64,000 bases of DNA from Candidatus Danuiimicrobium aquiferis (GCA_001804285.1 MHFR01000053.1:79857-143856), one strand, 5' to 3'. Positions 1-53,697 are shown, counted from the first letter of the stretch. A program made the numbers and translations. Notes: generated from the letters alone by a model not told the origin.

Positions 1-100
1 CGGATATCAACCATCGCAAACATCACCGTCAGCACGCTTGTATAAATTCCAACGACAAGAAGTCCGAACATCGAAAAAATCGAAAAAACGAACGCACCAA
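1..100 (-). other. Hydrophobic (transmembrane-like) segment of the giant protein at the window edge
   Basis: Translation is KKLGLGAFVFSIFSMFGLLVVGIYTSVLTVMFAMVDI, and the ORF continues beyond position 1. Confidence 0.5.
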
Positions 101-3100
101 GACCTAATTTTTTGCTTGCCAACGCATCTTCCACGCCTTCAAGGTCATTCCGTTTCAATGCCTGCATGAACTTTTTGTTTCTTTTTAGTTTTTCATAGAA
201 TTTTACAATCTCGTCGGGCGTTTTCTCCTCATAGATCCTTTTTTCTGTTTCTTGCCGTAGCCACTCTTCTTCGCGTGTTTCCGATCGTGCATATGTTTGA
301 ATAGTTTCCCGGATTTTTTGGGTACTAAAATCGGGGAAAAGGTCTTTGTCTTTTTGATACTGACTAAATTTTTCGCGCCCAAGTAGCACATTTAAATATT
401 GAATTAAGATTGCTTTCGACCCTGATTCCGTCACACCTCTCAATAAAAGATCCGTGACTAACACCGATTCAACGGATTCTCCCTGTCGAATATCGTTCAG
501 TAATTCATTCAGGATGCCGCGAATATTTCGGTTCGGATCGAAATCCTTATCAACAAGATACCGTTTTTGAAGCGCAAGTTTTTCCGTATCACTCCAATCT
601 GTATATTCACTGTAAATTTGATCGTACGCAAACGGCGATGTAAACATGAGCTGCAGGAAATCATTGACCGTTTCAATAATCAAACCGGCCGTACCCTTAT
701 CGCGATCCGGCATTGCTTTTATTTCCTGCGAAAATGCATCATTTTCTAAAACATGAAACACCTCTTCCATTAACATCCGGTGCGGATGTTGCGCTTTTCT
801 CAATTGTGTGCTCAAAGCAATCATTTTTCCGGTGTCTTCCGGGATCCCCAACACTTCGCGCAATTTTGCGGCGGTGATTCCGGCTTCTTTTGCAATGGCT
901 TCAAAATAATCTTTTGAAACGGTCACGCCCGGCAGAATCACGCCGGCGGCGTTCTTCCAAAACTGCTGATCAGCAAAAGTCAGCGGGGTTTGCGACAATA
1001 ATTTTTCTAAATAGTCTTTCCAGCGCGCTTTCTCGACGCCGCTGATTAAATCGAGAGGAAGTGTTAAGGTCGGAGAAATTAAGATCAAGAATGCCGGGTC
1101 GCCGGGTTTCACATTCTCAACAAGGTAAACAGATTCATTCGCTAATATTGTTTTCAAATCGTTACGGGAAGGAATTCCTTCAATGTCTTTCGTCTCGCCC
1201 AAACCGAACCACGATCCCATTCCCCGCACTTCCGAACGAACCTGTAAAAGAATTTCATTCCGTCTGGCTCTGACAAGAATATCAATCACCCAGTTTTTCT
1301 GAGGTAAACTCCAGTCAACACCGCGCGCTCCTCTGTAAATTCCATCAGCGCGCCTTGCATAAAGAATATCTTCCCGGGCTCTTAGGCTCCTAAGCAGTTT
1401 TGTTAAATTTTCCCGGTCTTTTTCGGCCAAAGATCCGAATCTCAAAGTCCGAATCGCTTCTCGTCTCAATTCTTCGCCGGTCATATTGATTAATTCATAT
1501 CGATACGTTTTTAGGGCCGATCCTGAAAATTCTGCCCTCACTTCGGCCCGGGCAGCAACAGGCGTTTTGATTTCCTCCACAATCCAGCCAACACTTTTCA
1601 CCAAATCTTTGGCTCTTTTAAACAAATCGTGATCCTCGGTAAGTACATTTCTGCCCTCTAAGAAAACTCCAAGATCCCCAACTAACGTTTCAAATTTCAA
1701 TAACTGTTCCGAAAGTTTTTGATGTAATGCCGTGAAATTGATGAGTTTCTCTAAATACGCCGTTTCCTCCGGGCTTAAAGCTCTCAGCTTTTCTTTTTCC
1801 GATATTCCCAGCGTATTAAAAATAGAAAAAATTTTATTAAATTCACCGTATCGAGCTATCCAAATTCGGCGTTCTTTTAAAATCGGATCAAATTCCGAAA
1901 TAAAATCGCGGGCCAGTTGAATGTTTGTTTTGAGATTAGTTAAAAGCTTATTGTCATTATCGTGATTGCCAATACTATGACTGCGAATCAAAGCTAAAAT
2001 GCTGGTCTCCGCTCCATCTATTAAAGTCTTAAATTGATGCATGATGAGTCCCACCATCATCTTCCGGACTTCGGCCGGGGGCATGTCCTGAACCGGCGAC
2101 CGCGCTTCGGCCCTCGATACACGCACTTTGGACCGTATCGAGGACAGGTCGCCCGCTTTGATTGATTCCTGCCCTGGCATTCCAAATTCGAGGCGGGCTT
2201 CCGCACGACTACTTGCCGGTGAAAAAGCGGAGAGTTCCTTGTCATCCAGATACAAGTCATCGCCCTGCGGCGTGGGGGCAACCGACCGCGCCTCGGCCCT
2301 GAATTTTGTGTCATCCCCGTGTACGCGGGGATCCAGCAGCTGCCCGCCAAAGGCGGATCCGCCCTTGGCGGAGATTCCCGCCTTTCCGCCCATCAGGACG
2401 GCGGATTCGCCAGTTTGTTGGGTGGACGCGGGAATGACAGAATCTTCTTCCTCTTCAATTTCTCTGATTTCTTCGAGCGCGGCGAGAATATCATTTTCGT
2501 CTATCAGCTGTTCCGGCATCATTTCATTACCCGTCGCGGCTACCGCTTTCAATGGTTTCGCCCGAACCGGCAGACTGACGTTAGGATCAACGGGACTTCG
2601 GATAATCCCGTCTTCCATAATTTTGACATTGTGAATTTCTTCTACGAAGGCTTGAATCGTTGTTTTAATGTTCCTTGCGGTAAAGTTTTGATCATCCAGT
2701 TTCGCAAAACGGCCGAGAAGATTTTCGAAGTTTTGATCGCGAAGATCGGCCGGACTCATCGCGAGCATCCGCCAAACCAATTTGAATTTTTCGCCGGACG
2801 ATACCTTGACAAGGCCGGGATGAGAAAGCAACCGGTTTAAAAAGTTCTGAAATTCCGTGTGATTATAGCGACGGACAATTTGATCACGGTACTGGCTTGT
2901 GTTTTTCCCGATCTCTTCTTTGATTTTGCTTTGAATCTGTTCAAGTGCTCTTCTCTCAGTCCCTTGTATTTCTCTGATCGTGCCCGAATTCTGATGGACA
3001 AAGGGAATTGTGTATTGATGATTCGGATTTTCATCGGAAAAATATTCCGCAAAATCAACAGCTCCGGCAATTAACTGAAGCCAGCCTGAAAAAAGTGCCT

Positions 3101-6100
3101 TCCATCCGGCATTTTGAAGCGCCGGCTGTCCGGCTTTTACCTGCTTTTCAACTTCATCGCTCCACGCCCCGGAGCGGGACCCCAGTGCCCCGCCCGAAGG
3201 AGTACTTGCCGCAACCGGCGGCAAGTGCGCCTCGCTCGAACGCGGCCCCGGAAGAGGCCTCAGCGCCTCATCTGGCGCAGTGCTCGATTCAACCGGAATC
3301 GAGCGCATTTCGTTCCGTGTCCCGGCAACCGCGACAGGCCTTGAAACACCGCCTGTTAAACGAGCTTCATCAAACAATTCTGTCCGCGTCTGTGCGGCAG
3401 ACTTACGGAATTCCTCCGCTACACGATCCCATAAAATCTGATCGTCAACCGTTTCGGTATCAGAAAAACCAAACCACTGTTTCAAACCGCTTCTCACCGC
3501 TTCATACAATCGAGGGTTTGCTTTTTGGTTGATATCAAATAATTCCTGCAACAACCGGCTTTCCGCCGGACCTGCTTGCGATAATAAATAACCCAAAACA
3601 AGGCCGATATAATGATTTGCAAACCGTTGAAGTCTGACGGGATCATCTGTGTCATGGCGCAAATAAACGCCGTTTTCGATTTCGGTCCTGATATTTTCGA
3701 CTGCGAGTTCCCCGGGACGGTCAAATCCAAACTGAATGGCATGATCAATCTCGCTGTCTGAAAACCCCGGCCGGAACATTTCCCGGATTTCGCTTCGTGT
3801 TCTATCTGCAAGCACACCCAATTCTCCGAAACTTCGGGTACGCCCGATGATATGATAAACGTCGCGGCCCGGAAGAATTTGCGCCAGTCGTCTGACCGCC
3901 TGAATCGCCTGTCTGGCTCCGTCTTTCTGATCAGGCCGAACATAGCCCAGCGCGGTGTCCAAAGACGCATTTCCAAAATTTGTATCGACTGTTCCGTTGG
4001 CCCGCAAATTCATTCCGAAATAAGCTTGAAGTTCCTCAAGCCCGTTCATTTCATCAACATCAGGACGTTCGATAGAAGGCTGATCGGTTTTTCCGCCGGC
4101 ACGGTGATGAATTGATTCGTGGAACTCGGTTTTTTTCATCGGTCTTTCAATCCGGCCACCGGGATGATTAATATTTTGCGTCAAAAATGCGTATGAACCG
4201 ACCGCGCGAAAATAATTTTCCTGAGTCCCGTCTAATGTCTGAATCCGTAAAGGTCCGTATGTACCGGGATCGTTCATGAAACCTTGCGTCGAGCTTGTCT
4301 GGAAAACTCCGTTTTCCCGTAAATATAAAACTGCTTCTGCCGTCAGATGAATGTATCCCGCGTAATGATCGCGGATCCCGTTGGCTTTGAGAAAATCAGC
4401 GCCGATTTCCGGAAATTCGGAAAGTTTTTGGACTCCAATTTCGCATCCTTGGAATACATCGATTTCAGTCTCTGACGGTTCCCGATTTAACATCGTATGC
4501 GCAATAAGCCTGACTCGCTCGCGCGGAGTCATCCGGGAAAGTTGTTTCGAAGCGCGTAGACCGTCTTGATTGATTTTTTTCATCCGGGTCCGGACATTAA
4601 TGGCCTCGCGGACCGTAATTTGCTGGGAAGGAATTTGCGTAGCCGGTTTTGTCTGCAGGGTAGACGATGCCGAAGCTGATTTGGAAGAAGCAGGCGGTGC
4701 GAGGTCGGATGCGGTATGCGTTACGGGAGAAAGGCTCTTGATCGCTTGCGCGAGCGCGGCCGGATCGTTCTTCAGGGCCGGCGTCCGGGCCACAAGCGCC
4801 TGAGCCGCAATTAAAATATTCAAAAATCCATGAATCCGGTCAAGTTCAGCCTGTGTTTGTGCGGACAGAACGCCAAGAGCGCCCGCTTGATCCGAAGCAA
4901 TAATAATAACCAGTTCGCCTGTTTGCGGATGCCTGGCCAATTGATACCGGTAACCGCCCGCTCTCAATTCGTTCCCGGAAACACCATCGATAAAATCCAA
5001 ATCATCAATCATGTCAAATAAAATACCGGCCGCCGCTTGAAGTTCGGCCCTGACCATGTCGGCTCCCAACGGGCCCGCTCCCGGCATCGCCATAATCCGC
5101 GCTTCGGAGCGCTCATCAAGTGGTGTTTGAGCCGCTTGAGGACCAGTTTCCTGTACTTCTGTTAGAACTCTGGCCCGCATCCCAAGACTTACCGCACTTC
5201 CATCAGGAGCGAACTCAAATACGAAATGTCCTTGGCCATCTTTTACCGCTCGGCCTTCCGCTGACCGCTTAATGCCGTAGACAGACTTTACAGCAGAGTC
5301 TATCTTTCTTCCGTCGTCATCAAGCAAGATTAAATCTCTCCCATCAAACTCGTACCGATTACCACTTTCTCCGTCCTCTATTCGATCCCCTTTCTGCAAT
5401 CCTCGAAGCAATTCAATCCCCGATTGGCGGGCTTCTTCTATCGCTTGATTCGCTGCCTGCGTCTTTTTTACGCCTTGCGCAATCAGCTCATCCCTTCGTT
5501 TCGTTGTACGATCATCCCCGTCAAATTGCGCCCCCTGAAGAACGCGCGATGTTCCAGCGCCAGGCACTTCTGAACGACCGCCGGCATCCGCAGGAACCAT
5601 TTCACTATTTGGAAAAACTAAAATCTTGACTGCCTCACTTCCCCAATCCTGCCCTATGCGGGCCGGCATTAATGCCCCATCGGACGGATACCAATTATAA
5701 TAAGGCATAAAAAACATTTTCCCGATACTGAGTTTCCCCAGCACTTGAATATTTTCAGGATGAACTAAGTAATATCCCCCTGGCCGCCCTCTCATCCAAA
5801 CTTTAAATCTCCCGTCGGCTGTGCGTTCAAGTACATACTCTAAATCATGCGTAGAAGAACGAATCAACACCTGGTCACCCGGTTTCAAACTATCAAGATC
5901 AAGTTCGTTGACCTCTCGTCCTTTATTTTCATCAAGCTCGGGAGTTGGCTCCGTCAAACTTCCTCTCGGATGTAACGGATTCTCCGGCTCATCACGCATT
6001 TCCTTCTGAGCGGGCATCGCGGCTACCGAGGATGTCTTGACCGGTGCAACCACATCCGTTTTTGTGGAACCCGGTAAAGGCCCCGCCTTACTCTTGGCCT

Positions 6101-9100
6101 GATCCGCCAACTTTTTCACCAATTCACGCCGGATGGCTTCCAGTATTTTTCTTTGTTCCGCCATTGTTGTTCCAAAGGCTTTGGATGGTTCTGGATATTT
6201 TTCTAAGGCTTTTATTATCACCTGGAAAATTTTCGCCAACGTGCCCCATATCGTGAGATCCTGATGCTTCATAACGTATAGATAACCATCAAAATCGCTT
6301 AGCGAAATATCCTGAATATTACTCATGAGATCATCTGCGACCTTCGCTGCCAAATCGTTATATTCAGCCGAAATACTCTCCCCGGATGAAAATGCACTCA
6401 GAATTTCTTCGATCTTTTTCGCATAACGCCCGGCCACTCTGTTTGAAGCACTATGAAGTTGCTCTCGCACATCTGTTAAATCACCCCTGCTTTGCGCAAC
6501 ACGAATAAAATTAATAACGGCCCAGGCAAAAGCAACTTGCGGATCATTGGCTTCTATTGTTTGCTGCTGCAATTCGTTTAACAATTTTTCTATATCCCGG
6601 AGATCACCTTCCGAAACAGTTTTTCCCTGCAATGCCAGAGCTGCAGCCAATAGTCCCTCAAGCATTCTTTCCATCTTGCGGGCAGTTTCCGGATTAGATT
6701 GCGTCCTGTTTTGAGATGCTAACGGCAGCACAACTTCAGCAGTTTTTGTTGCTTCTGCGGTAGATGATTTTTCTTCCACTCCTCCATCTTTATTGCCAAG
6801 AGATTCCTTCTCCCACTCTCCGGCTTGATTTTTCCGATGCGCAACCAAATTACCATCCGAATCGATTTCAAGGAAGCCTCGTCCTCCCCCGTATCTTTCA
6901 TAAAGACCCACATCGACATTGACGCGCGATGCATTCGGGCTGGCAACAACGGGTGAATCCGCCTCTGGCGTGTGACCGAAAATTTGCCTCATTTTCCCTG
7001 CATCGACCGAGTCCATCACCCCGCGATTCCAAAAGATTCCATCCTCCCCAAAAATGGCGTGAGAGAAATTCTTGCCTGAAATCGCCTGCTTCAATATTTC
7101 ATTAATATGGTCAGCTATTTGTTTTTCGGTCACCTGCGAAGGATCAATGCCCAACTTTTGAGCAATCTCCTTAATCAACTGTTTCCTTATCTTCGATCTA
7201 GCTCCCGCATGCGTAAACACCTCTCCATGAAGCTGTTCGGCCGCTTTCAAATGATCATTCATAATGTCCTCTAACATTTGATCAACTATTTCTCCATAAA
7301 CTTCTCTAATGGCAGCCCGAAATCTTTGTGGATCGTCGCGAAATTCTTCAAACACGGCTCTTTGCTCCGTGGGCAAATTACGCCACCACATAAATAGCGC
7401 ATCATCGTCACCCAACATGCCCTCTAACAACATCAATTCATGATTCCCAATTAAACGCACAACATCCCCGCCGGCCTGTTGCGCTTGCCTTTTAAGACGC
7501 CTCAAGAATTCAATCGCCTCTTTTGATTTCGGCCCGCGATCAATCACATCTCCGACTTGCACAAAAACAGCGTCTCCGCCAATCCAATTTCCGTTTTCAT
7601 CAATCAATCCCGCCTGTCGCAAATCTTCTTTTAAGCCATCCAATTCTCCGTGAACATCGCCATGCACAACCATTCGAGGTTGTTTTTTGGGTATTTGTCT
7701 TTTTTCCGCAGGTTGTCGCGTGCCTTCTGCGAATTTTTCAGTTGAAGGAACTGCTATTTCTTCACCTGTCTTGCGCACTTCAGAACGCCTGCCTGCCGTC
7801 TGTGTGGCGGGGGCGGCGGGTAGCACTTCCCTAAACATTTCGCGCAATCTGTCCGACTGTTCTTGTAATGCCGCTTTCAAGTTCGGATCCTCGTCAGCCG
7901 GAATAAGTGACGGAAGCGCTTCATAACCGGCAATGAGCTGTCCAAACATATCCGCATTTTCAATTCCCATTTGTTCTAAATTAAGCCCCGCCGTTAACGC
8001 TGCATCGATTTCATCTCGCAGATTCCGGCCGACATCAACCGCTTCTTTTTGAACATTTTCACCGGCGGCTGCACGATCCTTCAACGCCTGCGCGCGTTTG
8101 GCATAATCAACAGCACAGGCGGAACATGAGGTCAAGATTGCTACAATCTCGGGCGCAATTTCATTCAACTGGCTTCCGAATTTCCGGAGAAGCGCTTCCA
8201 ATATTTTTGCCTTATAGTCATTCCGTTCAGCCCCGTGAAGCGGCCCGCCCTCGGAAACGAGCGCGCTCAGTTCCGCCCGCACTTCAGACCGGCTTAATTC
8301 ATCCGAATGTTCGATTTTACCAATGATGCCCTGCGTCGCTTGATCTGCTGTTTGATCCCCGACATAATCTTTCAATGCATTTAAATACATCGCCAAAAAC
8401 GAATCCATAATCTGACCCGGATCTTCGACAATCAGCTCTTCCAATTCTTGCGCATGCTCAAAAACACTTTCGGGAACGCCTTTCGTCAAAAATTGGCTTA
8501 GCGTCACTCCGGCCAAATGTGGCGCAAAACGATGCGGCCCAAAGTCTGTCGCCTTACGGAATTGGGCCAACCGCTCGGGAGTAAGCGTCCTGACCAAGAA
8601 CTCAGCCGCCAATCCGATCTCAAACAACCTTTTCATAATTCTGAGGTGAGCCAATCGTTGTGCTTTCATCCGCGCCTCTAACGCGGAAATCACTTGCTCG
8701 ATTTGCGTTTTACTCTCTTCATACAAGTCCGCATATTCGATCTTTAACTGCCGGTATTGAGCTAAAAGTGCTCCGTCTTTTTCTGACAACCGCGCCGAGA
8801 GAAATTTGCCGTACTCAATTAAAGCGGCACCCAACAAATCAAATAATTTTTTCAAGGCAAAATTTTGGGTGGAAATATTTTCAAAATAATCTTCGCCGAA
8901 TAATAGGACGCCCGAATGTTTTGCGGAAATCATCCGGTTCATCTCGTTGTTAAATTGCGCGGAAGGTTTGGCTTTGCCGGCCCCCATCACTTTGATTTCT
9001 AACTTGCCCGTTTGCCAATCAGAATCGCCAAAGATTTCCCGCTTTTCTTCATCGGTTAGATGGATATCAACACTTTCTTCAATATTGTCCTCTACAATAA

Positions 9101-12100
9101 TGAGGATATCCATATCTTGCGCATTATAATGATCAAACCCCGCAATGGTCCCGGGGCCCCAAATGTAACTGCCTTTAACGTTGATCGCGAGAATTTTGTG
9201 GCCGATCTTCTTCCTTAGAAAAGCCGGCAACCGCTCGCGGATAATTTCGATGCGGCCTCTTACTTCGTCTTTGGCTTCATCCGTCAGGCCGTGCCAATAC
9301 CAGTTCCGTTTTTCCAAATCTTGTTCAATGTCTTTCATCGGACGGCCGATTTCGCGCTCTTGCGGGCTTCTCCCTTTAAGGCGAGGCGCCATATACCGGT
9401 CGTGCTCCGGCATGTCTATCAATTGACTGAGTTGATCGTCCAACGCAGCGCGCAAAATAAAATCCTTATCTCCGTCCAACAAAGTCATGAGCGCTTGATA
9501 CCCTCGCTCAAGCTGTCCAAACATATTAAGATTCTGAATCCCCATCTGTGACAGCGTCAGGCCGGCTTTGAGCGCCGCCTCTATTTCCGTTTTTAAACTT
9601 TGAGCGATATCAAGAACTTCGCCGTGAACATCTTCCCCTTGGCCCGCCCGTTTGGCTAAATCCGATGCCCGGTTCGCATAATTCACGGCGCAGGAGGAGC
9701 ATGAGGTAAGAATTTCCGCAATCGCCGGCGCAACGTCAGTCAGTCGAGACCCAAACCGCTCGATCATTTCATTTAAAATTTGCGCTTTTAAATCATTATG
9801 CTTTTCACCGCGAAGTTCGCCTCTCGCCCCCACTAACAACCCCAACTCCGCTTCCAATTCCGGAAGATCCGATTCCTCTGCCTGCCTAATCCGTTCGAGC
9901 ATCTCCCTCGCAGCAATTTCGGCACTGAACACTTTTTCGAGCACCGCCTTGATTCGATTGGAATCACTCAATCCTCTTTCCGCGATTTTACGAACCATCT
10001 CGTCATAAGTTGCCTCGTCTTTATCTGCTTCCAATTCATTCAGTTCTTTTATGATTTCATTTTCCGCCATAAACCTTTCATAATCCCCTGAGGTTTGATA
10101 GCCGGAATCAAACTTAACTTCTTCTGCCTCAACCAAGTAAACTTTTTTTCCGTTTTTACGCGCATTTTCCATTCCGATGGCACCGATTTTTTTCAGCTCA
10201 TCCGCGCTCACTTCTCTCAGTTTAAGGTTCTTCAAACGGATGGCGTGTTCGTTTGTATGGACATTGACATAAATAGCATTCGGATCGGCTCCGATATGCT
10301 TCTCTGCGTCCGGATTGATCTCAAAAGAAAATACAATAATGTCACCGGTCGGCAATTGAAGACCTTCCCCCCCATCGTAAGAAAGAAGGGGCACTTGAGA
10401 CGCATAAACACCCTCACCAAAGGCGTTTGCAACCCCCGGGTAAATTACAATTTCTCCGCCTTCGACAATTTTCGACTTATCAATCCCGGAAACGTGATAG
10501 ACTGTTTTATTCCGACCGGATAAGAAATCGATTGCACGCATTAATTGATTTCTATACTCATCTTCCATGTTTGTTGCTATTTGAACCAAGGACTCCAGTT
10601 CCTTCGCTAATTCATCAACAGGCATTGTGTTATACGTATTAAGTAAAATTTCTAATTGCACGTGAGCGCGCAAACCCTTCAATTTTCGCTCAACCCGAGC
10701 CGCGTCTTCGCCTCGTCCCGTGCTTTGGTAGTATTCAATTAATTCCTTATATTTAGCCTCAGCCCCCGGCCAATCCCAGTTTTCGCCGCGCGTTTTCGTC
10801 GCCTGTCGATCCGCAATTTTTTCAATATTAGCGAAAATGCGCTCCAATTGCGCTGCCTTCTCTCTGGCCATTTGGGTTCGCAAAGCAGTTAGTTGCGTCT
10901 GCAATTCGGTTTTTAATTTTACATCCAACCCTTCGATTCCGTCGAGCGCAAGGTACCCTGCAATGAGCTGATCAAGCACGCCTGATGTTTCAATTCCCAT
11001 TTGAGGGAGTGACAATCCGGCTGCCAATGCCGCTCCGATTTCTGATTTTAAATTCTCCGCGACTTCGCGGGCTTCTGTCGCCACATTTTCGCCGGCGGCT
11101 GCACGATCCTTCAATTCCTGTGCGCGTTTGGCATAATCAACAGCACAAGATGAACAGGAAGTCAGAATATCTTCAATCGCCGGTGCAATTTCCGAAAGTT
11201 GATCTCCAAATTTTTCAACAAGCGCTCGCAAAATTTCCGCTTTTTGATCATTCGCTTCTTCGCCGCGAAGCGCACCGCCTTCTTTCACAAGCTCTCTGAG
11301 TTCCGCTTCAATGGATATAAGGTCCGCCTCATTTGCTTTTTTAATCCGATCGATCATCTGATCGGCAGCCACTTGCGCTACCGTCATTCGTTCTGCAAGG
11401 CGGCTGTCACTCATTGTTTTCAAAGCACCCTGAGAACCCGACTCTGCAGAAGATAGAGCCGCCATAATTGCCGGCGAAATCCCTGAAAGCGCCTGGCCGA
11501 ATTTTTCTTTGAGTGCATTTAAAATTTGTGCCCGGCGGTCGATTTGCTGACCACCAGAAAAATACGCCTTTAAAAAATAGTCTAATTTCTTTTGAAATTC
11601 GTCTAATCGATCTTGTTGTAATGTCTGGATTTCCTTGACGAGTTCCGCAACTTTTGCATCCAGCTCACGATCGGGATAGGAAATACCGTTCGCAATTTCT
11701 GTTCCGTTTGAGTCATAGAGCTGATATTCCACCTTCTTTGAGACATCGCGCTCCATCGGCCCGGTCGCTCGAACCACAAAGCCATTTTCGGAAAGAATTT
11801 GTCCCAACCTCGGAATGGCTTTCTTTGCGTCTTCCGCGGTATAATATTTTGTATAGATACCGTCAATCAGCACATTCGCCACAATAACCATATCGACTTT
11901 CCCCACAAGGTCGGCACGGCCGGCATTTTTCAAGCCTTCGTTCACATGAAATGCATCCGCAAGCGCGAATTCCATTTGAATTCCGGGCAAGGTTTCTTTC
12001 GATAATTGTTTGCGCGCAGAATCAATATATTGTCGGTTGTTATCAAATCCGATCATGACAACGTTCCCATATCCGGAATCCCGGAGAGAACGCGCAAGAT

Positions 12101-15100
12101 CAAAGGTCGTGGGCGCACCTTTTTTCCCGATTCCGTAATCGGCAATGACCAGTAAATCATTTTTGGACTTTCCCTGCTGCCGGCGCAGTTCCTCAACGCG
12201 AGCGATCATATCCCGATGAAGGGGCGACAAACGTCCCTGCCATGTCACCCCGGGTGTTTGATCAGAAAGCGAATCTTTTTCACCGACGAGCCGGACAAGT
12301 TCATCAAGACGGGCCCTTAACCGGCTTAATACATCCGCAGATTCAATTCCAAACAGTTGCGAATTTTTCAAAATCTGGTCATAAAGATCGCGGGCAGCCT
12401 CCAATTTTCCTTCTTCGGCCAATTGATTCGCTTGTGTCACATTTTGAATATTCAACGGGTAATCTGCCGGCACAGGTGCTTCAGTCTCACTCGCATTAAT
12501 GTCATCCCCACGAAAGTGGGGATCCAACTGGATTCCCGCCTTCGCGGGAATGACAGAATTCCGGACTTCGGCACGTTTGGCTAACATTTTGTCCGCCAAA
12601 GTACTCTCGCGCGTTCCGATTAATACCTGGTGAGAACCACTTTCAAGGTTACGCGCTTCGGAGCGAACAGCCTCAGTAGCCCTTGTTTCTGCTCCTTCCA
12701 CCAATTTAAACGGAGCAATCGCCGGAATTTTGACTGGAATACTGATCGCAAAGGTGGTGCTTTTTTCTTTTTTTCCTGTTTCCGGATTAATCACCTCACC
12801 CGAATCAATTTCAAGAACACCGTTATATTTCCCGATAACAGCGCGAACATTTTGAAGTCCCTGCCCCCTCCCCAAGGCCCCTTTCGTTGTCAGCGGAATC
12901 CCGCTCCGGATCTGCCGCAAAACATCCGCAGACATTCCTTTTCCGTTATCTTTCGCAACTAATCGAATCGATTGTTTTCCTTCTTCCGAAAGTTCGAATG
13001 TCGCTGAAATTTGAATTTCAAAATCGTCTTGTCCTGCCTTTTTTGCATCCCGTGCATTCTGAATTAAATTCGTCAGCAACACATCCAAATCCATCACGGC
13101 AAGCCCTGAATCCAACCCGATCTCCCAAGTCATTCTGACATACGGTTCTCGCCTTGCCCAATTAAGCAAAATGTTTAATTCCTCTTCTTGCGGCAATCTC
13201 TGACCTGTTTCCAGTCTTTCAAGCGTGTCCGCAAATCTTTTTGTTTCGTCGAGCGCACGCTCTGTCCAATCAATATATAGTTGGTCGTTCTCCTCGCTTT
13301 GAATCTGGTATTTTTTCATGAGCGTTAAAACAGCTTCGCCAAATTGCTCTGCTTCCCGGATTGCCTGCTTCGTCACCTCGATTAACACGATTAAATCGTC
13401 TATATATTCCGGCTGAAAATGGGTTTCTGTATTAACCGAACTGATCGTCTGCAACAGCATTCTTCCGTAATCAATCGCCTGAGCGCCTTTTGGTTTGAGC
13501 TCTTCATATCGGGCTCTGTCTTCCGGCGAAAGCGCCTTCTTCTCAAATCCGAAATAACGCATATTGGTAGCGGCCTTCCAAATATGACTTAAACGATGGG
13601 TAAAATCTCTTTGCGGCCAGCTCATATATTCGATAATTTCTCTCAACCGAACCTCATTTGCTCGAAGCGCTGCATTTTTATATTGATCCCGTTCGGTTTC
13701 GGGAACCAACGTATCAATCAATTGTTTAAACCGGTCTTTGGGTGTGACAATTATTGAAGGACTTTCAGCCACCGTTGTCCGGCTCTCCGATCTTGCTGTC
13801 TGCTGGACTTGACCTTCCCGCAGTTCCGAACGAGAAGTCTGTTTTTTCTGCCACTCATCAAGGTTAATCACCATTGTGTATAATTTTTTTCCATCCACCG
13901 TGTCTATTGAAGAAACTACCCGTGCAGTATGATAACGCCAAAGCTTGCGGCCCTGTTCTGTCACCGAATTAATTTGAACCTCCGTCAACCCCATGGTCAC
14001 GAACCGCTCAAGAAAACGGATTGCCAATTCATTTGCGACGGTTGTGCTTCTGCCCGCTAATTCGATGGGAAACGAACGTGCCGAATGAATTTGTCCTTTA
14101 GCAATGACGTGTTCTGGCTTTTTGGGATCAACCGCATATTCATAACGATGAGCGCCTACAAGTTCGCCCGAAGGTGTTTCAATATAGTCAACAAAAGTAT
14201 TCGGACGCAGACCTTTTAAACGGTCACGTTCGAAACCAAGAAAATCATTGACCCGATCAAAAAGAAATTGATTATCAACCTCTCCAATTTTCCAGCCACC
14301 TTGATCGCTCGTGCGCGCCTCCGTCCTTGGTTGAGCGGTCAGATCAGTCAAGGACGGAGCGCCGGTTGTTTTGATTAAATTCGCTTGGGAATTATTTTTT
14401 TCGAAGCGCTGCTCCGAACGGAATTCAGATCGCGGAAGTTTTTGGATGGCCCGGCAGTAAAAATTTTCTGCCGCGGGCGCCGCGGAAAAATTTCCATCGA
14501 CAATGTCAGAATTATGATCAATAAATTGAATTTCATTCGTATCGTTTTCAAACGCCGGTAAAAGGCTTAACGAGGCATCCTCTAAAATAAAGTGGACCTC
14601 ATTTAATATTTGAGCCGCCAGGACAGCGGCCGGATTGCTTTGTTTTTCTTCCTCCGCAAGGGCCGCTGCTATTTCGAGTCTTTTTAGAACACGGTTTTTG
14701 TTTTTGAGAATGCTTTGTCCGTTTACCGATAATGAAATTTGATCTCCGTCAATCTCGAGCAGGTTTAATTGATTGAACAGCAAATCATAAAGAGCTTGAA
14801 CGGTCTTTTCTTGTTTTAAAACTTGTTGGCCGGATTCGGTGAAAGAAAATGTCCGTCTGAGCAAATCTTCAGCTGTGTCGGGAGAAGACGCAAGCAACAT
14901 ATCTATCATCCTATTTTCTCCAGTTCCTATCGGATTTGCCGCGTCCGGAGCTTCAACAGCAACCATCTTGAGAATCTCCATACGCTCGGGAGTTTCCGGG
15001 GCAACCAATAATGTTTGGATCCCACGCGCAAAGGCGGCAAGGTCCGCTCTCGCCTCCGTGCGAGCGGCAATGGCAGCGGTTTTGGTATCAGCGGAAGCAG

Positions 15101-19778: not shown

Positions 19779-19949
19779 ATAATTTTATATCAAACATCAC
19801 CCGTCTAAATTTCCGCAAGTTGTTTAATTTGAATAGTTTATGGATATTATTTTTGCTCGTTTTTTAGAGGAAAATTGGGGGCTGGCTTTGAGTCACAGAT
19901 TTTATTAAATCTATCAATAAATGGCGCGAAAAAAGCTCTTAAAACTTTC
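19779..19949 (-). promoter_or_regulatory. AT-rich intergenic region upstream of the giant ORF, and a putative promoter or leader
   Basis: It is the only non-coding stretch between queG and the giant gene. AAGGAAA and GGTGA Shine-Dalgarno-like sequences precede the candidate starts. Confidence 0.3.
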
Positions 19950-32065: not shown

Positions 32066-32254
32066 TTAATTTCGGGACGGTTCAATCGTAACCTCATTGA
32101 TCGCAATGGGTTATGGAAAATCATCCCCGCATTTGAAGATGTTCCTTGTTTTGAAAGTGTACTAAATCGTGCGGAATCTGTCTATCTTTTCCTAATGTAT
32201 GTAGGAATTGAGGATCAAATTTTCTTCCCCCCTCTGTGGGGGAAGAATAGTATC

Positions 32255-32392
32255 TGTTTAGCGTTCTGAAGTGGCGAACACGCCAAGTTCGTGTCATGCC
32301 CGCATGCTTAAAGCGGGCATCCACAGTTTCTGGAAAAAGGGGACAGGTTCTGATCCTATTAAGTCAGAACCTGTCCCCTTTTTATATCGGGT
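32255..32392. repeat. 75-nt repeat TTTAGCGTTCTGAAGTGGCGAACACGCCAAGTTCGTGTCATGCCCGCATGCTTAAAGCGGGCATCCACAGTTTCTGGA, plus a GGGGACAGGTTCTGATCCTATTAAGTCAGAACCTGTCCCC element
   Basis: The 75-nt unit is almost identical to 53596..53675. Confidence 0.8.
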
Positions 32393-53076: not shown

Positions 53077-53637
53077 TCACTTTGTTACCTTCGCAGTCGC
53101 CGCATCCAATTCAAAAAGGCGAAGGGTTTCGCTTACTCCATTTATTATAATATCGACTTCATTCTTACGAATTTGAGTAACAATAATGCCATTCTTTTCT
53201 TCATTCTTACTGTAAATTTCTCCGTTAATAATCGCCTTCGCCCCTTTGTTGGACATGCTGACGCCCTCAAGAACTGCGCTGGATGCGGATTTTACTCTTT
53301 TCTCGCTTTTCACCTCAACCGGAATGGGAGCCGTTGGTAGGTTCGATTCAAAAGGATCGCGAATTTGATCCAATTGATCTGCCGGTTGATTTGGAACTGC
53401 CGTTTTTTCTTTAGATTCGGGTGAAAGCAGAGGTTTCGCGATTGATGTTTGTTCCGATAGCGGCGGTTGTTCCAATGTTTCCGGAAGCTTTGTTTCGTCA
53501 GAAGATTGACTATAGAGAAGGGGCGCAAAAAGGAAGAAAAAAAGAATAGCGTAGAGTGTGTAGCGTATAGCGCAGAGCGTAGAGCCTTTGTGTCTATTTA
53601 GCGTTTTGAAGTGGCGAACACGCCATGTTCGTGTCAT
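53077..53637 (-). CDS. PilP-like pilus assembly lipoprotein. The start is uncertain.
   Basis: C-terminal beta domain NKGAKAIINGEIYSKNEEKNGIIVTQI...ETLRLFEL. The track ORF 53077..53808 extends through MITE sequence, and the first plausible Met is at 53637. Confidence 0.45.
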   Translation of the reverse strand: MTRTWRVRHFKTLNRHKGSTLCAIRYTLYAILFFFLFAPLLYSQSSDETKLPETLEQPPLSEQTSIAKPLLSPESKEKTAVPNQPADQLDQIRDPFESNLPTAPIPVEVKSEKRVKSASSAVLEGVSMSNKGAKAIINGEIYSKNEEKNGIIVTQIRKNEVDIIINGVSETLRLFELDAATAKVTK

Positions 53638-53697
53638 GCCCGCATGCTTAAAGCGGGCATCCACAGTTTCTGGATTCCCGCTTTCGCGGGAATGACA
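53596..53697. repeat. 75-nt repeat (TTTAGCGTTTTGAAGTGGCGAACACGCCATGTTCGTGTCATGCCCGCATGCTTAAAGCGGGCATCCACAGTTTCTGGA) plus ATTCCCGCTTTCGCGGGAATGAC
   Basis: Near-identical to 32255..32328. Confidence 0.8.

What the first reader, a model, noticed from the sequence alone, without database searches (positions are those of the whole stretch)
6850..7690. Eukaryotic-like PPP-family phosphatase module embedded in the giant protein
GDVHG, GDVIDRG and GNHE are present in the canonical order and spacing of calcineurin-like Ser/Thr phosphoprotein phosphatases. Together with the GHKL ATPase-like, NTase and Nudix modules in the same polypeptide, this suggests a protein able to act on phospho- or nucleotide-modified substrates of another cell, or a self-contained signalling machine.
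Basis: partly seen in the sequence, partly recalled or inferred. Interest (0 to 1): 0.55.

Follow-up and report, generated by a model that had tools for sequence, protein, structure and literature searches.

The report
Bacterial-type phosphatase module in giant protein
A real and apparently active metal-dependent phosphatase domain sits inside a secreted protein of more than 6,500 residues from an uncultured Omnitrophota bacterium, but it is the bacterial "Shewanella-like" type rather than a eukaryotic one, and such enzyme modules are already known to stud these giant proteins.

Summary
On the minus strand, GDVHG, GDVIDRG and GNHE lie in canonical order inside a stop-free frame of at least 6,594 codons (window 3-19784). 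The domain (aa 4030-4334, window 6783-7697) passes Pfam Metallophos. Its AlphaFold model has pLDDT 92.9, and every catalytic and metal-binding residue of the PPP family is present.

The "eukaryotic-like" label is not supported. It has VDVG in place of SAPNY, a Gly before the last metal-binding His, a GIFWNRG motif and an insert after GNHE. By sequence, profile and fold its closest solved relative is the Shewanella cold-active phosphatase. The characterised members of that Shelph branch are tyrosine-specific in vitro.

Closest relatives are stand-alone ~285-aa bacterial enzymes. The same module also recurs inside many other very long proteins, including a 7,523-aa one at about 51-60% identity.

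The host protein opens with a signal peptide and an Omnitrophota-specific N-terminal domain, and carries NUDIX and GHKL modules. This is the published pattern for Omnitrophota giant proteins.

My best reading is an active phosphatase cassette of an exported multi-enzyme protein that acts outside the producer's cytoplasm. Verdict: new member of a known kind.

The more novel by-product is a pentapeptide, R-S/A/T-E-V/A/T-R. It punctuates the protein 17 times (0.23 expected) and sits exactly where the conserved phosphatase cassette begins. It is a candidate processing site.

The parts
3..19727 (-). Giant ORF of at least 6,575 codons counted from the likely GTG start. It is truncated at the left edge of the window.
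   Evidence: The stop-free frame spans 3-19784. The likely start is the GTG at 19727, preceded by AAAGGAAAT; an alternative ATG lies at 19778. GC is 47%, like the neighbouring housekeeping genes. The adjoining 21 kb is 99.99% identical to four independent ENA assemblies.
19611..19727 (-). Signal-peptide-like N-terminus: VANTSDKSILICRR-LIAIILVITFTLTNFTFT-PSRSVYA|ES
   Evidence: This is one of only two strongly hydrophobic stretches; the other is the C-terminal segment at the window edge, and the weaker 1412-1430 and 6232-6250 are discounted. It has a basic n-region, a hydrophobic core and a VYA|E site. All N-domain homologues start the same way.
16665..19607 (-). Conserved N-terminal domain of the giant-protein family (QDAH...EG...ERD..N...GGFH), interrupted by insertions derived from palindromic repeats
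   Evidence: It is shared with P0121, P0194, P0160, P0236, P0132, P0125, P0122 and P0182. Invariant residues are H122, E155, R633, N640 and H661. Named homologues are mostly Candidatus Omnitrophica/Omnitrophota, with one Elusimicrobia. The AlphaFold core has pLDDT 80-93 and the insertions are below 50.
16038..16373 (-). NUDIX module (aa 1138-1249)
   Evidence: Pfam PF00293 scores 30.5 bits against a cut-off of 21.1.
12729..13091 (-). GHKL / HATPase_c module (aa 2232-2352)
   Evidence: Pfam PF02518 scores 44.1 bits against a cut-off of 26.4; PF14501 scores 26 bits.
7815..8363 (-). Third copy of a ~180-aa internal repeat module (aa 3808-3990), lying directly upstream of the phosphatase cassette
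   Evidence: Segment-versus-whole BLASTP finds copies at aa 2789-2975, 3270-3455 and 3808-3990, 50-62% identical.
7773..7787 (-). Junction pentapeptide RSEVR (aa 4000-4004), 37 residues before GDVHG
   Evidence: It is one of 17 R[STAN]E[AVLMTS]R motifs (0.23 expected). Homology with the P0121 phosphatase cassette begins here (WIN 3998 / P0121 6037).
6783..7697 (-). Shelph-like PPP metallophosphatase domain (aa 4030-4334)
   Evidence: The evidence is the Pfam Metallophos hit, the HMM envelope, an AlphaFold model with pLDDT 92.9 and pTM 0.91, and Foldseek top hits 2zbm/2z72/1v73.
7647..7661 (-). GDVHG (metal ligands Asp4043 and His4045)
   Evidence: The positions are conserved in essentially all 236 aligned modules: His in all, Asp in 235 with one alignment gap.
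7533..7553 (-). GDVIDRG (bridging Asp4079, Asp4082, phosphate-binding Arg4083)
   Evidence: These residues are invariant or nearly so in 236 modules. The motif is canonical, not the modified ApaH form.
7437..7448 (-). GNHE (metal ligand Asn4114, catalytic His4115)
7215..7436 (-). 74-residue helical insert between GNHE and HAG
   Evidence: The alignment shows about 30 extra residues relative to stand-alone homologues. The model shows helices over model residues 85-146. Inserts at this position are a Shelph/Rhilph trait (PMC535813).
7203..7214 (-). THAG (metal ligand His4192)
7020..7040 (-). GIFWNRG, a Shelph-type 'GP(L/T)WxRG' motif that supplies a candidate second phosphate-binding Arg4254
   Evidence: The Shewanella enzyme reads GPTWYRGY. 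35 of 236 modules have this form instead of the RGG loop.
6966..6977 (-). GHTP (last metal ligand His4271, preceded by Gly)
   Evidence: A Gly before this His is the bacterial-type trait.
6906..6917 (-). VDVG, the bacterial-type (I/L/V)D(S/T)G motif in its Shelph variant with Val
   Evidence: The definition is in PMC535813.
5112..6782 (-). 557 residues of unknown function that follow the phosphatase within the same motif-bounded segment
   Evidence: There is no Pfam hit at E<=0.01 and no PDB sequence hit below E 0.38. None of the 150 hits listed in the 1.84-billion-protein search had a best-scoring stretch in this part of the query.
5097..5111 (-). Next junction pentapeptide RSEAR (aa 4892-4896)
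3..101 (-). First strongly hydrophobic (membrane-spanning-like) segment after the signal peptide (aa 6562-6594), cut by the window edge
   Evidence: Kyte-Doolittle scan.

Best explanation
Window 6783-7697 (minus strand) encodes a catalytically competent binuclear-metal phosphatase domain. It belongs to the bacterial, Shewanella-like (Shelph-like) branch of the PPP family. It is one enzyme cassette of a signal-peptide-bearing, multi-enzyme giant protein of an uncultured Omnitrophota bacterium. The protein is of the multi-enzyme kind that West-Roberts et al. grouped as 'Archaeovorins'.

Proposed mechanism, step by step:
(i) Two metal ions are held by Asp4043/His4045/Asp4079 and by Asp4079/Asn4114/His4192/His4271. 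His4115 acts as general acid, with Asp4082. Arg4083 and probably Arg4254 bind the phosphate. This step is inferred from conserved residues and from the fold.
(ii) The chain is exported through Sec, because it begins with a signal peptide and has no membrane segment for about 6,500 residues. This step is inferred from sequence.
(iii) The module therefore works outside the producer's cytoplasm, on or in a partner or prey cell. It may first be released by cleavage at the flanking R-S-E-V/A-R junctions. This step is speculative.
(iv) The substrate is most likely a phosphoprotein. Phosphotyrosine is a serious possibility, because the characterised Shelphs are tyrosine-specific. This step is an inference by analogy only.
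For: Identity and integrity:
- Pfam Metallophos is above threshold.
- All PPP signature motifs and both downstream metal-binding His residues are present, and they are essentially invariant in 27 embedded and 209 other modules.
- The AlphaFold model has pLDDT 92.9 and pTM 0.91.

Branch assignment:
- The best solved relative is the Shewanella cold-active phosphatase by phmmer (E 3e-15), by profile (E 2e-20 against about 4e-5 for PP2A) and by Foldseek (E 2e-13, TM 0.65).
- VDVG, GHTP, the post-GNHE insert and GIFWNRG match the bacterial/Shelph criteria of PMC535813.

Recurrent cassette:
- The same module is embedded in proteins of 900-7,989 aa, including P0121 (7,523 aa; 51% identity by BLASTP; 54-60% by other measures), P0122 (named Omnitrophota) and P0202 (named Woesearchaeota).

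Host protein and taxon:
- NUDIX and HATPase_c modules are present.
- Named homologues of the N-terminal domain are mostly Omnitrophota, and the nearest named IspG is Omnitrophota.
- The published description of Omnitrophota giant proteins lists NUDIX, methyltransferases, HATPase_c and Ser/Thr phosphatases, with mostly extracellular predictions.

Export:
- The signal peptide is described, and it is conserved in all homologues.

Junctions:
- The pentapeptide occurs 17 times against 0.23 expected and is encoded by varying codons.
- It is absent from 14,767 other ORF residues of the window.
- It is enriched in the related giants P0121 (11 copies) and P0194 (7 copies).
- Homology between the WIN and P0121 phosphatase cassettes starts at the motif.

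Tyrosine specificity of characterised Shelphs: PMC5658161.
Against: - No experiment bears on activity, substrate, export or cleavage.
- Overall identity to the Shewanella enzyme is only about 20-22%, and the strong similarity is confined to the N-terminal 88 residues. 'Shelph-like' is therefore a nearest-neighbour statement. No formal phylogeny with reference Shelph, Alph and Rhilph sequences was made.
- The module lacks the RGG loop that is nearly invariant in its closest stand-alone relatives.
- Other modules of the same chain (GHKL ATPase, SAM methyltransferase-like, NUDIX) need cytoplasmic cofactors. This fits delivery into another cell, but it equally casts doubt on the topology prediction. 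West-Roberts et al. themselves call such predictions unreliable.
- The C-terminal part of the protein is outside the window and could not be retrieved.
- No protease was identified that would cut at the junction motif.
Confidence: 0.55

Rival explanations
1. The module is a nucleotide or nucleic-acid phosphoesterase, not a protein phosphatase. It would be ApaH/PrpE-like (dinucleoside polyphosphates, Np4-caps) or Pnkp-like (2',3'-cyclic or 3'-phosphate RNA ends). It would work together with the NUDIX module and the putative nucleotidyltransferase-like region of the same chain.
For: The next-best solved relatives after the Shewanella enzyme are the Clostridium Pnkp phosphatase domain 4j6o (E 9e-8), RLPH2 and ApaH (E 4e-7). 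NCBIfam gives weak hits to ApaH, PrpE and Pnkp models. NUDIX lies in the same polypeptide. ApaH-like PPPs act as decapping enzymes in trypanosomes (abstract of PMC8220851). Bacterial PPPs have broad specificity (PMC535813).
Against: All NCBIfam scores are far below the curated cut-offs: 28.7 against 176 for ApaH, 22.9 against 340 for PrpE, and 18 against 750 for Pnkp. GDVIDRG is canonical, whereas diadenosine tetraphosphatases carry characteristic changes in this motif (Figure 3 legend of PMC535813). The Shewanella enzyme is closer by 12 or more orders of magnitude in E-value. The NTase-like region is not detected by Pfam.
Confidence: 0.2
2. The module is a cytoplasmic regulatory phosphatase. 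It would reverse phosphorylation made by the GHKL module of the same protein, giving a self-contained signalling device as in the reader's second suggestion.
For: A histidine-kinase-type ATPase fold (HATPase_c, 44 bits; HATPase_c_5) is present about 1,700 residues upstream. ATP-dependent modules are easier to rationalise in the cytoplasm.
Against: No HisKA/DHp, receiver or other signalling domain was detected anywhere in the 6,594 residues. The protein and all its homologues begin with a signal peptide. The two modules lie in different motif-bounded segments. They are not linked in relatives: P0121 shares only the N-domain and the phosphatase cassette.
Confidence: 0.1
3. It is a conventional eukaryotic-type PPP (PP1/PP2A/calcineurin-like) acquired from a eukaryote, as the finding's title implies.
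For: The three N-terminal signature motifs are shared with eukaryotic PPPs. PP5 and PP2A appear among the Foldseek hits (E 4e-8 to 1e-5).
Against: There is no SAPNY motif; VDVG stands in its place, and a Gly precedes the last metal-binding His. PP2A scores E 0.5 with the single sequence and about 4e-5 with the profile, against 3e-15 and 2e-20 for the Shewanella enzyme. Every source-named sequence homologue among the 120 listed is bacterial (most carry no name), and among the embedded relatives looked up P0122 is Omnitrophota and P0202 Woesearchaeota.
Confidence: 0.03
4. It is a decayed, non-catalytic remnant, or the ORF is an assembly or annotation artefact.
For: Many palindromic repeat elements are inserted in frame in the giant ORF. 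The protein itself is absent from the two protein collections searched.
Against: A 19.8-kb stop-free frame cannot arise by chance. Every catalytic residue is intact. The model is confident throughout. The flanking genome is reproduced at 99.99% identity in four independent assemblies. No repeat element lies inside the phosphatase domain.
Confidence: 0.02

Closest known systems
Shewanella sp. cold-active protein-tyrosine phosphatase / psychrophilic phosphatase I (PDB 1V73, 2Z72, 2ZBM), the prototype of the Shelph (SLP) branch of PPP phosphatases
   Same: It is the best solved relative by sequence (E 3e-15), profile (E 2e-20) and fold (Foldseek E 2e-13, TM 0.65). It shares GDxHG, GDxxDRG and GNHE, an insert after GNHE, H(A/G)G, a W-x-R-G motif (GPTWYRGY against GIFWNRG), a Gly-His, and a (V/I)D(V/S)-type motif in place of SAPNY.
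   Different: Overall identity is only about 20-22%, and the similarity is concentrated in the first 88 residues. The Shewanella enzyme is a free ~340-aa protein, whereas this module is an internal cassette of a protein of more than 6,500 aa. The substrate is untested here.
Uncharacterised stand-alone ~285-aa bacterial metallophosphoesterases (P0001-P0120; source-named examples come from Syntrophales, Chloroflexota, Elusimicrobia and Chlamydiae MAGs)
   Same: They are 35-39% identical over 97% of the domain, with the same motifs throughout.
   Different: Most carry an 'RGGxxxVGG' loop that the window module lacks. They also lack its ~30-residue insert after GNHE. They are single-domain proteins.
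Phosphatase cassette of P0121 (7,523-aa protein from an ENA metagenome), and cassettes in P0194, P0236 and P0123
   Same: P0121 is 51% identical by BLASTP and 54-60% by other measures. These cassettes share the same FWxR variant, a preceding RSExR motif and, apart from P0123, the same N-terminal family domain and signal peptide.
   Different: All the other modules of the two giants differ. P0121 places the cassette at aa 6062, after a multi-spanning membrane region, and has a second, weaker PPP-like module.
Omnitrophota giant proteins ('Archaeovorins', West-Roberts et al. 2023, bioRxiv 10.1101/2023.11.21.568195; giant ORFs of Seymour et al. 2023, PMC10066038)
   Same: They are Omnitrophota proteins with a signal peptide and a largely unannotated N-terminus. 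They carry NUDIX, methyltransferase and HATPase_c domains. Ser/Thr phosphatases are listed among the domains shared by giant proteins. Locations are predicted to be mostly extracellular, and proteolytic processing is suspected.
   Different: Those studies treat genes over 90 kb or over 20 kb. This ORF is at least 19.8 kb and truncated. No C39 or S8 peptidase, SecA-like, glycosyl hydrolase or dockerin domain was found in the part available. The papers do not describe the type of phosphatase or any junction motif.
Legionella WipA (Dot/Icm effector with a PPP-like fold and tyrosine phosphatase activity); the statement about its activity is from memory
   Same: It is a translocated bacterial effector built on the same fold. 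There are weak sub-threshold hits: Pfam WipA_Phos E 0.01 (15.8 bits against 27) and NCBIfam T4SS_Wip E 0.025.
   Different: It is not a member, because the scores are well below the cut-offs. The delivery system is different.

Membership tests
PPP family of phosphatases (calcineurin-like metallophosphoesterase superfamily) | [quoted passage not shown] | tested here: met
   GDVHG is at aa 4042, GDVIDRG at aa 4078 and GNHE at aa 4113. The definition is quoted.
PPP family of phosphatases (calcineurin-like metallophosphoesterase superfamily) | A profile match above the curated threshold | tested here: met
   PF00149 scores 36.9-38.1 bits against a cut-off of 21.5.
PPP family of phosphatases (calcineurin-like metallophosphoesterase superfamily) | The two C-terminal metal-binding His residues (equivalents of PP1 H173 and H248) | tested here: met
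   His4192 (THAG) and His4271 (GHTP) are invariant in 236 aligned modules.
PPP family of phosphatases (calcineurin-like metallophosphoesterase superfamily) | The PPP alpha/beta sandwich fold | tested here: met
   The AlphaFold model has pLDDT 92.9. All 50 Foldseek PDB matches listed are PPP-family enzymes or complexes that contain one, and 147 matches have E<=0.001.
PPP family of phosphatases (calcineurin-like metallophosphoesterase superfamily) | A binuclear metal centre and phosphomonoesterase activity | not testable with these tools
   This needs biochemistry or a solved structure.
Conventional eukaryotic PPPs (PP1, PP2A, PP2B, PP5 and others) | A SAPNY motif in the beta12-beta13 loop (PMC535813) | tested here: not met
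   The aligned position reads NVDVGL (VDVG, aa 4290-4293).
Conventional eukaryotic PPPs (PP1, PP2A, PP2B, PP5 and others) | Closest similarity is to eukaryotic catalytic subunits | tested here: not met
   PP2A scores E 0.5 (sequence) and about 4e-5 (profile), against 3e-15 and 2e-20 for the Shewanella enzyme. In Foldseek, PP5 scores 4e-8 against 2e-13.
Bacterial-type PPPs | An (I/L/V)D(S/T)G motif in place of SAPNY | tested here: met
   The motif here is VDVG. Asp is present in 232 of 236 modules and Gly in 224 of 236.
Bacterial-type PPPs | The last metal-binding His is preceded by a conserved Gly | tested here: met
   The sequence reads FGHTP.
Shelph / SLP (Shewanella-like phosphatases) | The S/T position of (I/L/V)D(S/T)G is replaced by Val or Phe | tested here: met
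   The motif is VDVG. The paper's statement is quoted.
Shelph / SLP (Shewanella-like phosphatases) | An insert between GNHE and H(A/G)G | tested here: met
   74 residues lie between the two motifs. They are helical in the model. The trait is described.
Shelph / SLP (Shewanella-like phosphatases) | Groups with Shewanella PPI and plant SLPs in a phylogeny of the N-terminal subdomain | tested here: inconclusive
   Only nearest-neighbour evidence is available: the Shewanella enzyme is the best PDB hit by three methods, and the GPxWxRG-type motif is shared. No tree with reference Shelph, Alph and Rhilph sequences was built.
Shelph / SLP (Shewanella-like phosphatases) | Tyrosine-specific activity of the characterised members | not testable with these tools
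   This comes from the literature only (PMC5658161).
ApaH / PrpE diadenosine tetraphosphatases | An equivalog model score above the cut-off, and a modified GDXXDRG motif | tested here: not met
   NF001204 scores 28.7 against 176, TIGR00668 scores 12.4 against 222.85, and NF010148 scores 22.9 against 340. GDVIDRG is canonical.
Bacterial Pnkp (polynucleotide kinase-phosphatase) | The TIGR04075 equivalog, and the kinase-phosphatase-ligase architecture | tested here: not met
   The score is 18 bits against a cut-off of 750. No kinase or ligase domain lies adjacent.
Omnitrophota giant multi-enzyme proteins ('Archaeovorin' type, West-Roberts et al. 2023) | An Omnitrophota host genome | tested here: met
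   Homologues of the N-terminal domain are mostly named Candidatus Omnitrophica/Omnitrophota. The closest named IspG is Omnitrophota, 74% identical over a partial match. P0122 is named Omnitrophota. The genome itself was not named by any source.
Omnitrophota giant multi-enzyme proteins ('Archaeovorin' type, West-Roberts et al. 2023) | [quoted passage not shown] | tested here: inconclusive
   NUDIX is present and a methyltransferase is present weakly, and HATPase_c is present. No glycosyl transferase, glycosyl hydrolase or peptidase was detected in the 6,594 residues available. The C-terminus is missing.
Omnitrophota giant multi-enzyme proteins ('Archaeovorin' type, West-Roberts et al. 2023) | Gene length over 90 kb (their operational cut-off), or over 20 kb (Seymour et al.) | tested here: inconclusive
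   19.8 kb lies inside the window and the ORF continues beyond the edge. The remainder could not be fetched.

The most novel reading that the evidence does not exclude
The phosphatase is one cassette of a secreted bacterial polyprotein. The giant chain would be cut at the conserved R-S/A/T-E-V/A/T-R junctions into a cocktail of separate enzymes (phosphatase, NUDIX, GHKL ATPase, methyltransferases and others) that act on or in a host or prey cell. Cassettes would be exchanged between giant genes at these junctions. Other lineages of giant proteins would use their own junction peptides ('ASSPV'; 'DLGMxxDGGEE'). If so, these motifs supply the cleavage points that West-Roberts et al. said were lacking.
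Probability: 0.3. Interest if true: 0.7.

Novelty: new member of a known kind. Interest (0 to 1): 0.3.

Why it matters
By itself the module adds little. Bacterial-type PPP phosphatases are widespread. Giant Omnitrophota proteins are already described as strings of enzyme domains, and Ser/Thr phosphatases are mentioned among them.

Its value is as a clean, well-folded and clearly active-looking handle on an otherwise opaque class of proteins. It could be expressed and assayed. It shows that the same cassette travels between giant proteins of Omnitrophota and even of a DPANN archaeon. Its boundaries also coincide with a short conserved peptide.

If that peptide proves to be a processing site, the giant proteins of episymbiotic and predatory nanobacteria would be bacterial polyproteins that deliver enzyme cocktails. 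Their hundreds of unannotated segments could then be cut informatically into units that structure prediction can handle.

Tried and rejected
1. Retrieving the missing C-terminus and a named genome:
- The search for related loci with the last 300 residues found nothing in GTDB representative genomes or in JGI metagenomes.
- An exact look-up of the neighbouring QueG found nothing.
- ThiC did locate four ENA contigs with the same genome, but the fetched flanks stop before the giant gene.

2. The giant protein itself is not in either protein collection. The best hit to the phosphatase region is 54% identical.

3. The idea that the conserved N-terminal domain is a Tiki/TraB/ChaN/EreA-type hydrolase, and hence a candidate processing protease:
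- It rested on the QDAH...E...ERD..N...GGFH pattern.
- The only support found was a Pfam Cofac_haem_bdg hit at E 0.1 in one of five members and a non-significant Foldseek top hit to the effector HopBA1 (E 0.83).
- The profile found nothing in PDB sequences.
- I leave this as inconclusive.

4. The 557 residues after the phosphatase, and the next segment (which contains the protein's only HExxH, at aa 5222), gave nothing in Pfam or in PDB sequences.

5. Tandem Repeats Finder found no tandem repeats in the gene. A whole-protein self-BLAST returned only the self-hit, so segment-wise BLAST was needed.

6. The junction pentapeptide is not a DNA-level repeat, because its codons vary.

7. A literature search for the pentapeptide (RSEVR, RSEAR, RSETR, RAEAR) and for bacterial giant polyproteins found nothing relevant.

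9. The first attempt at a neighbour-joining tree timed out. Only pairwise identities were used.


Full report
**What is in the sequence.** The finding lies on the minus strand. A six-frame scan shows one stop-free frame from window 19784 down to 3 (6,594 codons). It runs off the left edge, so the C-terminus is missing. The ORF listing does not list it for that reason. In this frame GDVHG is aa 4042-4046 (window 7661-7647), GDVIDRG is aa 4078-4084 (7553-7533) and GNHE is aa 4113-4116 (7448-7437).

**Is it more than chance?**
- Pfam PF00149 (Metallophos) scores 36.9-38.1 bits against a gathering cut-off of 21.5.
- phmmer against all PDB sequences gives E 3e-15.
- The 5.8-billion-protein search returns 185 homologues down to E 1e-47, covering about 97% of a 296-residue query.
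- An AlphaFold2 model built on 35 aligned sequences has mean pLDDT 92.9 and pTM 0.91, with no segment below 50.

**Catalytic residues.** I extracted 236 modules from the retrieved proteins with an HMM of the family and aligned them. The following positions are invariant or nearly so, and all are present in the window:
- Asp4043 and His4045 (GDxHG)
- Asp4079, Asp4082 and Arg4083 (GDxxDRG)
- Asn4114 and His4115 (GNHE)
- His4192 (THAG)
- His4271 (GHTP)
- Asp4291 (VDVG)

From established knowledge of PP1 and lambda phosphatase, these are the ligands of the two metals, the general acid with its partner Asp, and one phosphate-binding Arg. That test is passed.

**Which kind of PPP?** Andreeva & Kutuzov (PMC535813) define the family by the three N-terminal motifs. 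They separate bacterial-type enzymes from conventional eukaryotic ones by four traits:
- an (I/L/V)D(S/T)G motif replaces SAPNY;
- a Gly precedes the last metal-binding His;
- Shelphs carry Val or Phe at the S/T position;
- Shelphs carry an insert between GNHE and H(A/G)G.

The window has VDVG, FGHTP, THAG and a 74-residue helical stretch between GNHE and THAG.

The closest solved protein is the Shewanella cold-active protein-tyrosine phosphatase (1V73, 2Z72, 2ZBM), the founding Shelph. This holds for three methods:

| Method | Shewanella enzyme | Other relatives |
|---|---|---|
| Single sequence (phmmer) | E 3e-15 | PP2A E 0.5 |
| Family profile | E 2e-20 | Pnkp 9e-8, RLPH2 2e-7, ApaH 4e-7, PP2A about 4e-5 |
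| Foldseek on the model | E 2e-13, TM 0.65 | PP5 4e-8 |

The module also carries GIFWNRG, the counterpart of GPTWYRGY in the Shewanella enzyme. 35 of the 236 modules have this form, while 144 have an 'RGG' loop instead. The Arg of this motif is my candidate for the second phosphate-binding arginine; this is an inference.

NCBIfam equivalog models for PrpA/B, ApaH, PrpE and Pnkp all score far below their cut-offs.

So this is a PPP-family phosphatase of the bacterial, Shelph-like branch. It is not eukaryotic-like. Overall identity to the Shewanella enzyme is only about 20-22% and no reference phylogeny was built, so I file it as Shelph-like rather than as a proven Shelph. The characterised Shelphs (Shewanella PPI, PbShelph1, PfShelph2) are tyrosine-specific in vitro despite the 'Ser/Thr' family label (PMC5658161). 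The substrate class therefore cannot be read from the motifs.

**Relatives.** The word-indexed search returned only stand-alone enzymes of about 285 aa, 35-39% identical. The few that carry source names come from uncultured Syntrophales, Chloroflexota, Elusimicrobia and Chlamydiae. The exhaustive search of 1.84 billion representatives found 5,547 hits. It showed the same module embedded in many long proteins:
- P0121: 7,523 aa, module at 6062-6375
- P0202: 7,989 aa, named Woesearchaeota archaeon
- P0194: 5,891 aa
- P0160: 4,340 aa
- P0236: 3,497 aa
- P0166: 3,103 aa
- P0132: 2,973 aa
- P0183: 2,828 aa
- P0125: 2,559 aa
- P0122: 2,530 aa, named Candidatus Omnitrophota

P0121 is the nearest, at 51% identity by BLASTP, 54% in the representative search and 60% over conserved alignment columns. 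The rest, embedded and free alike, sit at 42-48%. Embedded modules keep every catalytic residue, which argues for selection on activity.

**The host protein and organism.**
- The surrounding genes are ordinary chromosomal ones: QueG, Nth, PolX, MqnC-like, IspG, NadA and ThiC.
- GC content is uniform across the giant gene and its immediate neighbours (44-49% over window 1-32000).
- The 21 kb next to the giant gene is 99.99% identical to contigs from four independent ENA assemblies, one of them from sample 'ANAN16-1'.
- The nearest IspG sequences in GTDB representatives are uncultured bacteria (73%) and a Candidatus Omnitrophota MAG (74%, partial match).

The giant protein begins, most likely at the GTG at 19727 behind an AAAGGAAAT ribosome-binding site, with a signal-peptide-like segment (...ICRR-LIAIILVITFTLTNFTFT-PSRSVYA|ES). 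The next strongly hydrophobic segment is at aa 6562, at the window edge.

An N-terminal domain of about 1,000 residues follows the signal peptide. It has invariant His, Glu, Arg, Asn and His residues (QDAH...EG...ERD..N...GGFH). It is shared with P0121, P0194, P0160, P0236, P0132, P0125, P0122 and P0182. A profile search for it retrieves only 12 proteins; the seven that carry source names are six Candidatus Omnitrophica/Omnitrophota and one Elusimicrobia, and all 12 start with signal peptides.

Pfam recognises NUDIX (aa 1138-1249), HATPase_c (aa 2232-2352), a weak SAM-methyltransferase and the phosphatase.

This matches the published picture of Omnitrophota giant proteins (West-Roberts et al. 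2023; Seymour et al. 2023; a 2026 preprint):
- signal peptides and unannotated N-termini;
- NUDIX, methyltransferase and HATPase_c among the commonest domains;
- Ser/Thr phosphatases listed among the shared domains;
- mostly extracellular predictions;
- suspected but unlocated proteolytic processing.

Hence the novelty class is 'new member of a known kind'.

**How it most likely works.**
- *Shown:* the domain is intact, confidently folded, conserved at all catalytic positions and recurrent as a cassette.
- *Inferred from sequence:* the chain is exported, because it has a signal peptide and no membrane segment for about 6,500 residues. The phosphatase therefore acts outside the producer's cytoplasm.
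- *Inferred by analogy:* it dephosphorylates proteins, possibly on tyrosine, of a partner or prey cell. This agrees with the symbiotic or predatory lifestyle proposed for Omnitrophota.

The co-resident ATP-, SAM- and nucleotide-dependent modules make sense only in a cytoplasm. That favours delivery into another cell, but it also weakens confidence in the topology call.

Rivals are a nucleotide or RNA-end phosphoesterase working with NUDIX (0.2), a cytoplasmic regulator paired with the GHKL module (0.1), a eukaryote-derived PPP (0.03), and a dead or artefactual domain (0.02).

**A by-product that may matter more.** The pentapeptide R-[STAN]-E-[AVLMTS]-R occurs 17 times in the 6,594 residues. 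Shuffling gives 0.23 expected and a maximum of 2 in 500 trials. The supporting observations are:
- Its codons vary synonymously, so it is selected as a peptide and is not a DNA repeat.
- It is absent from the other 14,767 ORF residues of the window.
- It has no conserved flanks.
- It lies outside all four Pfam domain spans (positions).
- It is likewise enriched in P0121 (11 copies), P0194 (7) and P0236 (2).
- It first appears 220-370 residues after the GGFH motif of the N-domain in four proteins.
- An RSEVR lies 37 residues before GDVHG in the window, and an RSELR lies 10 residues before it in P0121.
- BLAST homology between these two giants is confined to the N-domain and to the phosphatase cassette. 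The cassette homology starts at the motif (WIN 3998 / P0121 6037).

Other lineages of PPP-bearing long proteins show different recurrent junction peptides. [AS]SSP[VILA] occurs 9, 7, 4 and 2 times in P0166, P0183, P0172 and P0175, where it brackets the phosphatase module on both sides. G[ML]xxDGGE occurs 4 and 3 times in P0132 and P0135.

These behave like cassette boundaries and are candidate processing sites. West-Roberts et al. state that cleavage points are unknown, and a full-text search found no mention of the motif. No protease was identified. The Tiki/ChaN-like idea for the N-domain remained inconclusive.

**Limits.**
- There is no experimental evidence of any kind.
- The C-terminal part of the protein is missing.
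- No reference phylogeny was built.
- The 557 residues that share the motif-bounded segment with the phosphatase are uncharacterised.

Noticed in passing
Window 3-19784 minus strand. The pentapeptides start at aa 1044, 1575, 1820, 1985, 1998, 2374, 2404, 3832, 4000, 4892, 5490, 5829, 5860, 5891, 6079, 6183 and 6500. Examples are window 7773-7787 and 5097-5111.: The pentapeptide R-S/A/T-E-V/A/T-R recurs 17 times (0.23 expected). It is encoded by varying codons and lies between recognisable domains. It is also enriched in the related giants P0121 (11 copies) and P0194 (7 copies). Homology of the phosphatase cassette starts exactly at one copy. It is a candidate proteolytic processing or cassette-junction motif, and no paper in the searchable library mentions it.
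   Followed up: partly
Proteins P0166, P0183, P0172, P0175 and P0132, P0135 (retrieved): Other lineages of long proteins that carry the PPP module have their own over-represented junction peptides. '[AS]SSP[VILA]' occurs 9, 7, 4 and 2 times and brackets the phosphatase module on both sides. 'G[ML]xxDGGE' (DLGMATDGGEE) occurs 4 and 3 times. About 0 are expected in each case.
   Followed up: partly
Window 2308-2339, 2385-2426, 12499-12562, 16667-16719, 17215-17246, 17866-17929, 18656-18708, 18832-18864, 19353-19384 and 19397-19449 (inside the giant ORF). Further copies lie at 20712 (inside the QueG ORF), 21040, 23906, 25052, 25653, 28420, 30542, 32292, 32332, 33963, 44263, 47081 and 53632.: Several families of short palindromic (REP/MITE-like) elements pepper the genome. 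Examples are AAAAGGGGACAGGTTCTG...CAGAACCTGTCCCCTTTT, TGTCATTCCCGC...GCGGGAATCC and CCCTCTCCCCGAGGGAGAGGGTTAGGGTGAGGG. At least ten copies sit in frame inside the giant ORF without breaking it. They are translated as peptides such as EKGTGSDSIEPEPVPFS, VIPAKAGIQLDPRLHGDD and PHPNPLPRGEG. In the AlphaFold model of the N-domain, the low-confidence (pLDDT below 50) segments include the stretches that hold these elements.
   Followed up: partly
Window 10860-11417, 9420-9974 and 7815-8363 minus strand (aa 2789-2975, 3270-3455 and 3808-3990): There are three copies, 50-62% identical, of a ~180-residue module that contains a conserved 'ILTSCSSCAVDYAKRA' stretch. P0121 has no counterpart.
   Followed up: partly
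Window 16665-19607 minus strand (aa 60-1040): This is the conserved N-terminal domain of the giant-protein family, with invariant H122, E155, R633, N640 and H661 (QDAH...EG...ERD..N...GGFH). It always follows a signal peptide. Source-named homologues are Omnitrophota apart from one Elusimicrobia. The residue pattern recalls Tiki/TraB/ChaN/EreA-type hydrolases (this comparison is from memory). The only hints found were a Pfam ChaN hit at E 0.1 and a Foldseek top hit to HopBA1 at E 0.83.
   Followed up: partly
Window 4107-4121 minus strand (aa 5222-5226, FHESIHH): This is the only HExxH in the 6,594 residues, in an otherwise unannotated segment. By eye, HExxH motifs also recur in P0121, P0194, P0160 and P0202. 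It is a possible zincin-type protease module and a candidate for processing. No Pfam or PDB support was found.
   Followed up: partly
Protein P0202 (RLE38497.1, 7,989 aa, Candidatus Woesearchaeota archaeon), module at aa 4896-5184: The same Shelph-like phosphatase module, about 42% identical, is embedded in a giant protein of a DPANN archaeon. That protein lacks the Omnitrophota N-domain and the RSExR motif. The cassette is therefore shared by giant proteins of unrelated small-celled lineages.
   Followed up: no
Protein P0121, aa ~2117-2232 and beyond: The closest giant relative carries a second, divergent PPP-like module (GDVHGDFEG...GDYVDRG...GNHD...THGS...GHDP...VDGG) in addition to the orthologous cassette.
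   Followed up: no
Only NUDIX, HATPase_c, a weak methyltransferase and Metallophos are detected in the whole protein.
   Followed up: partly
Window 32250-32334 and 53590-53674: An 85-nt direct repeat, 95% identical, lies in two intergenic regions 21 kb apart. It includes one of the TGTCATGCCCGC hairpin elements plus a shared upstream stretch.
   Followed up: no
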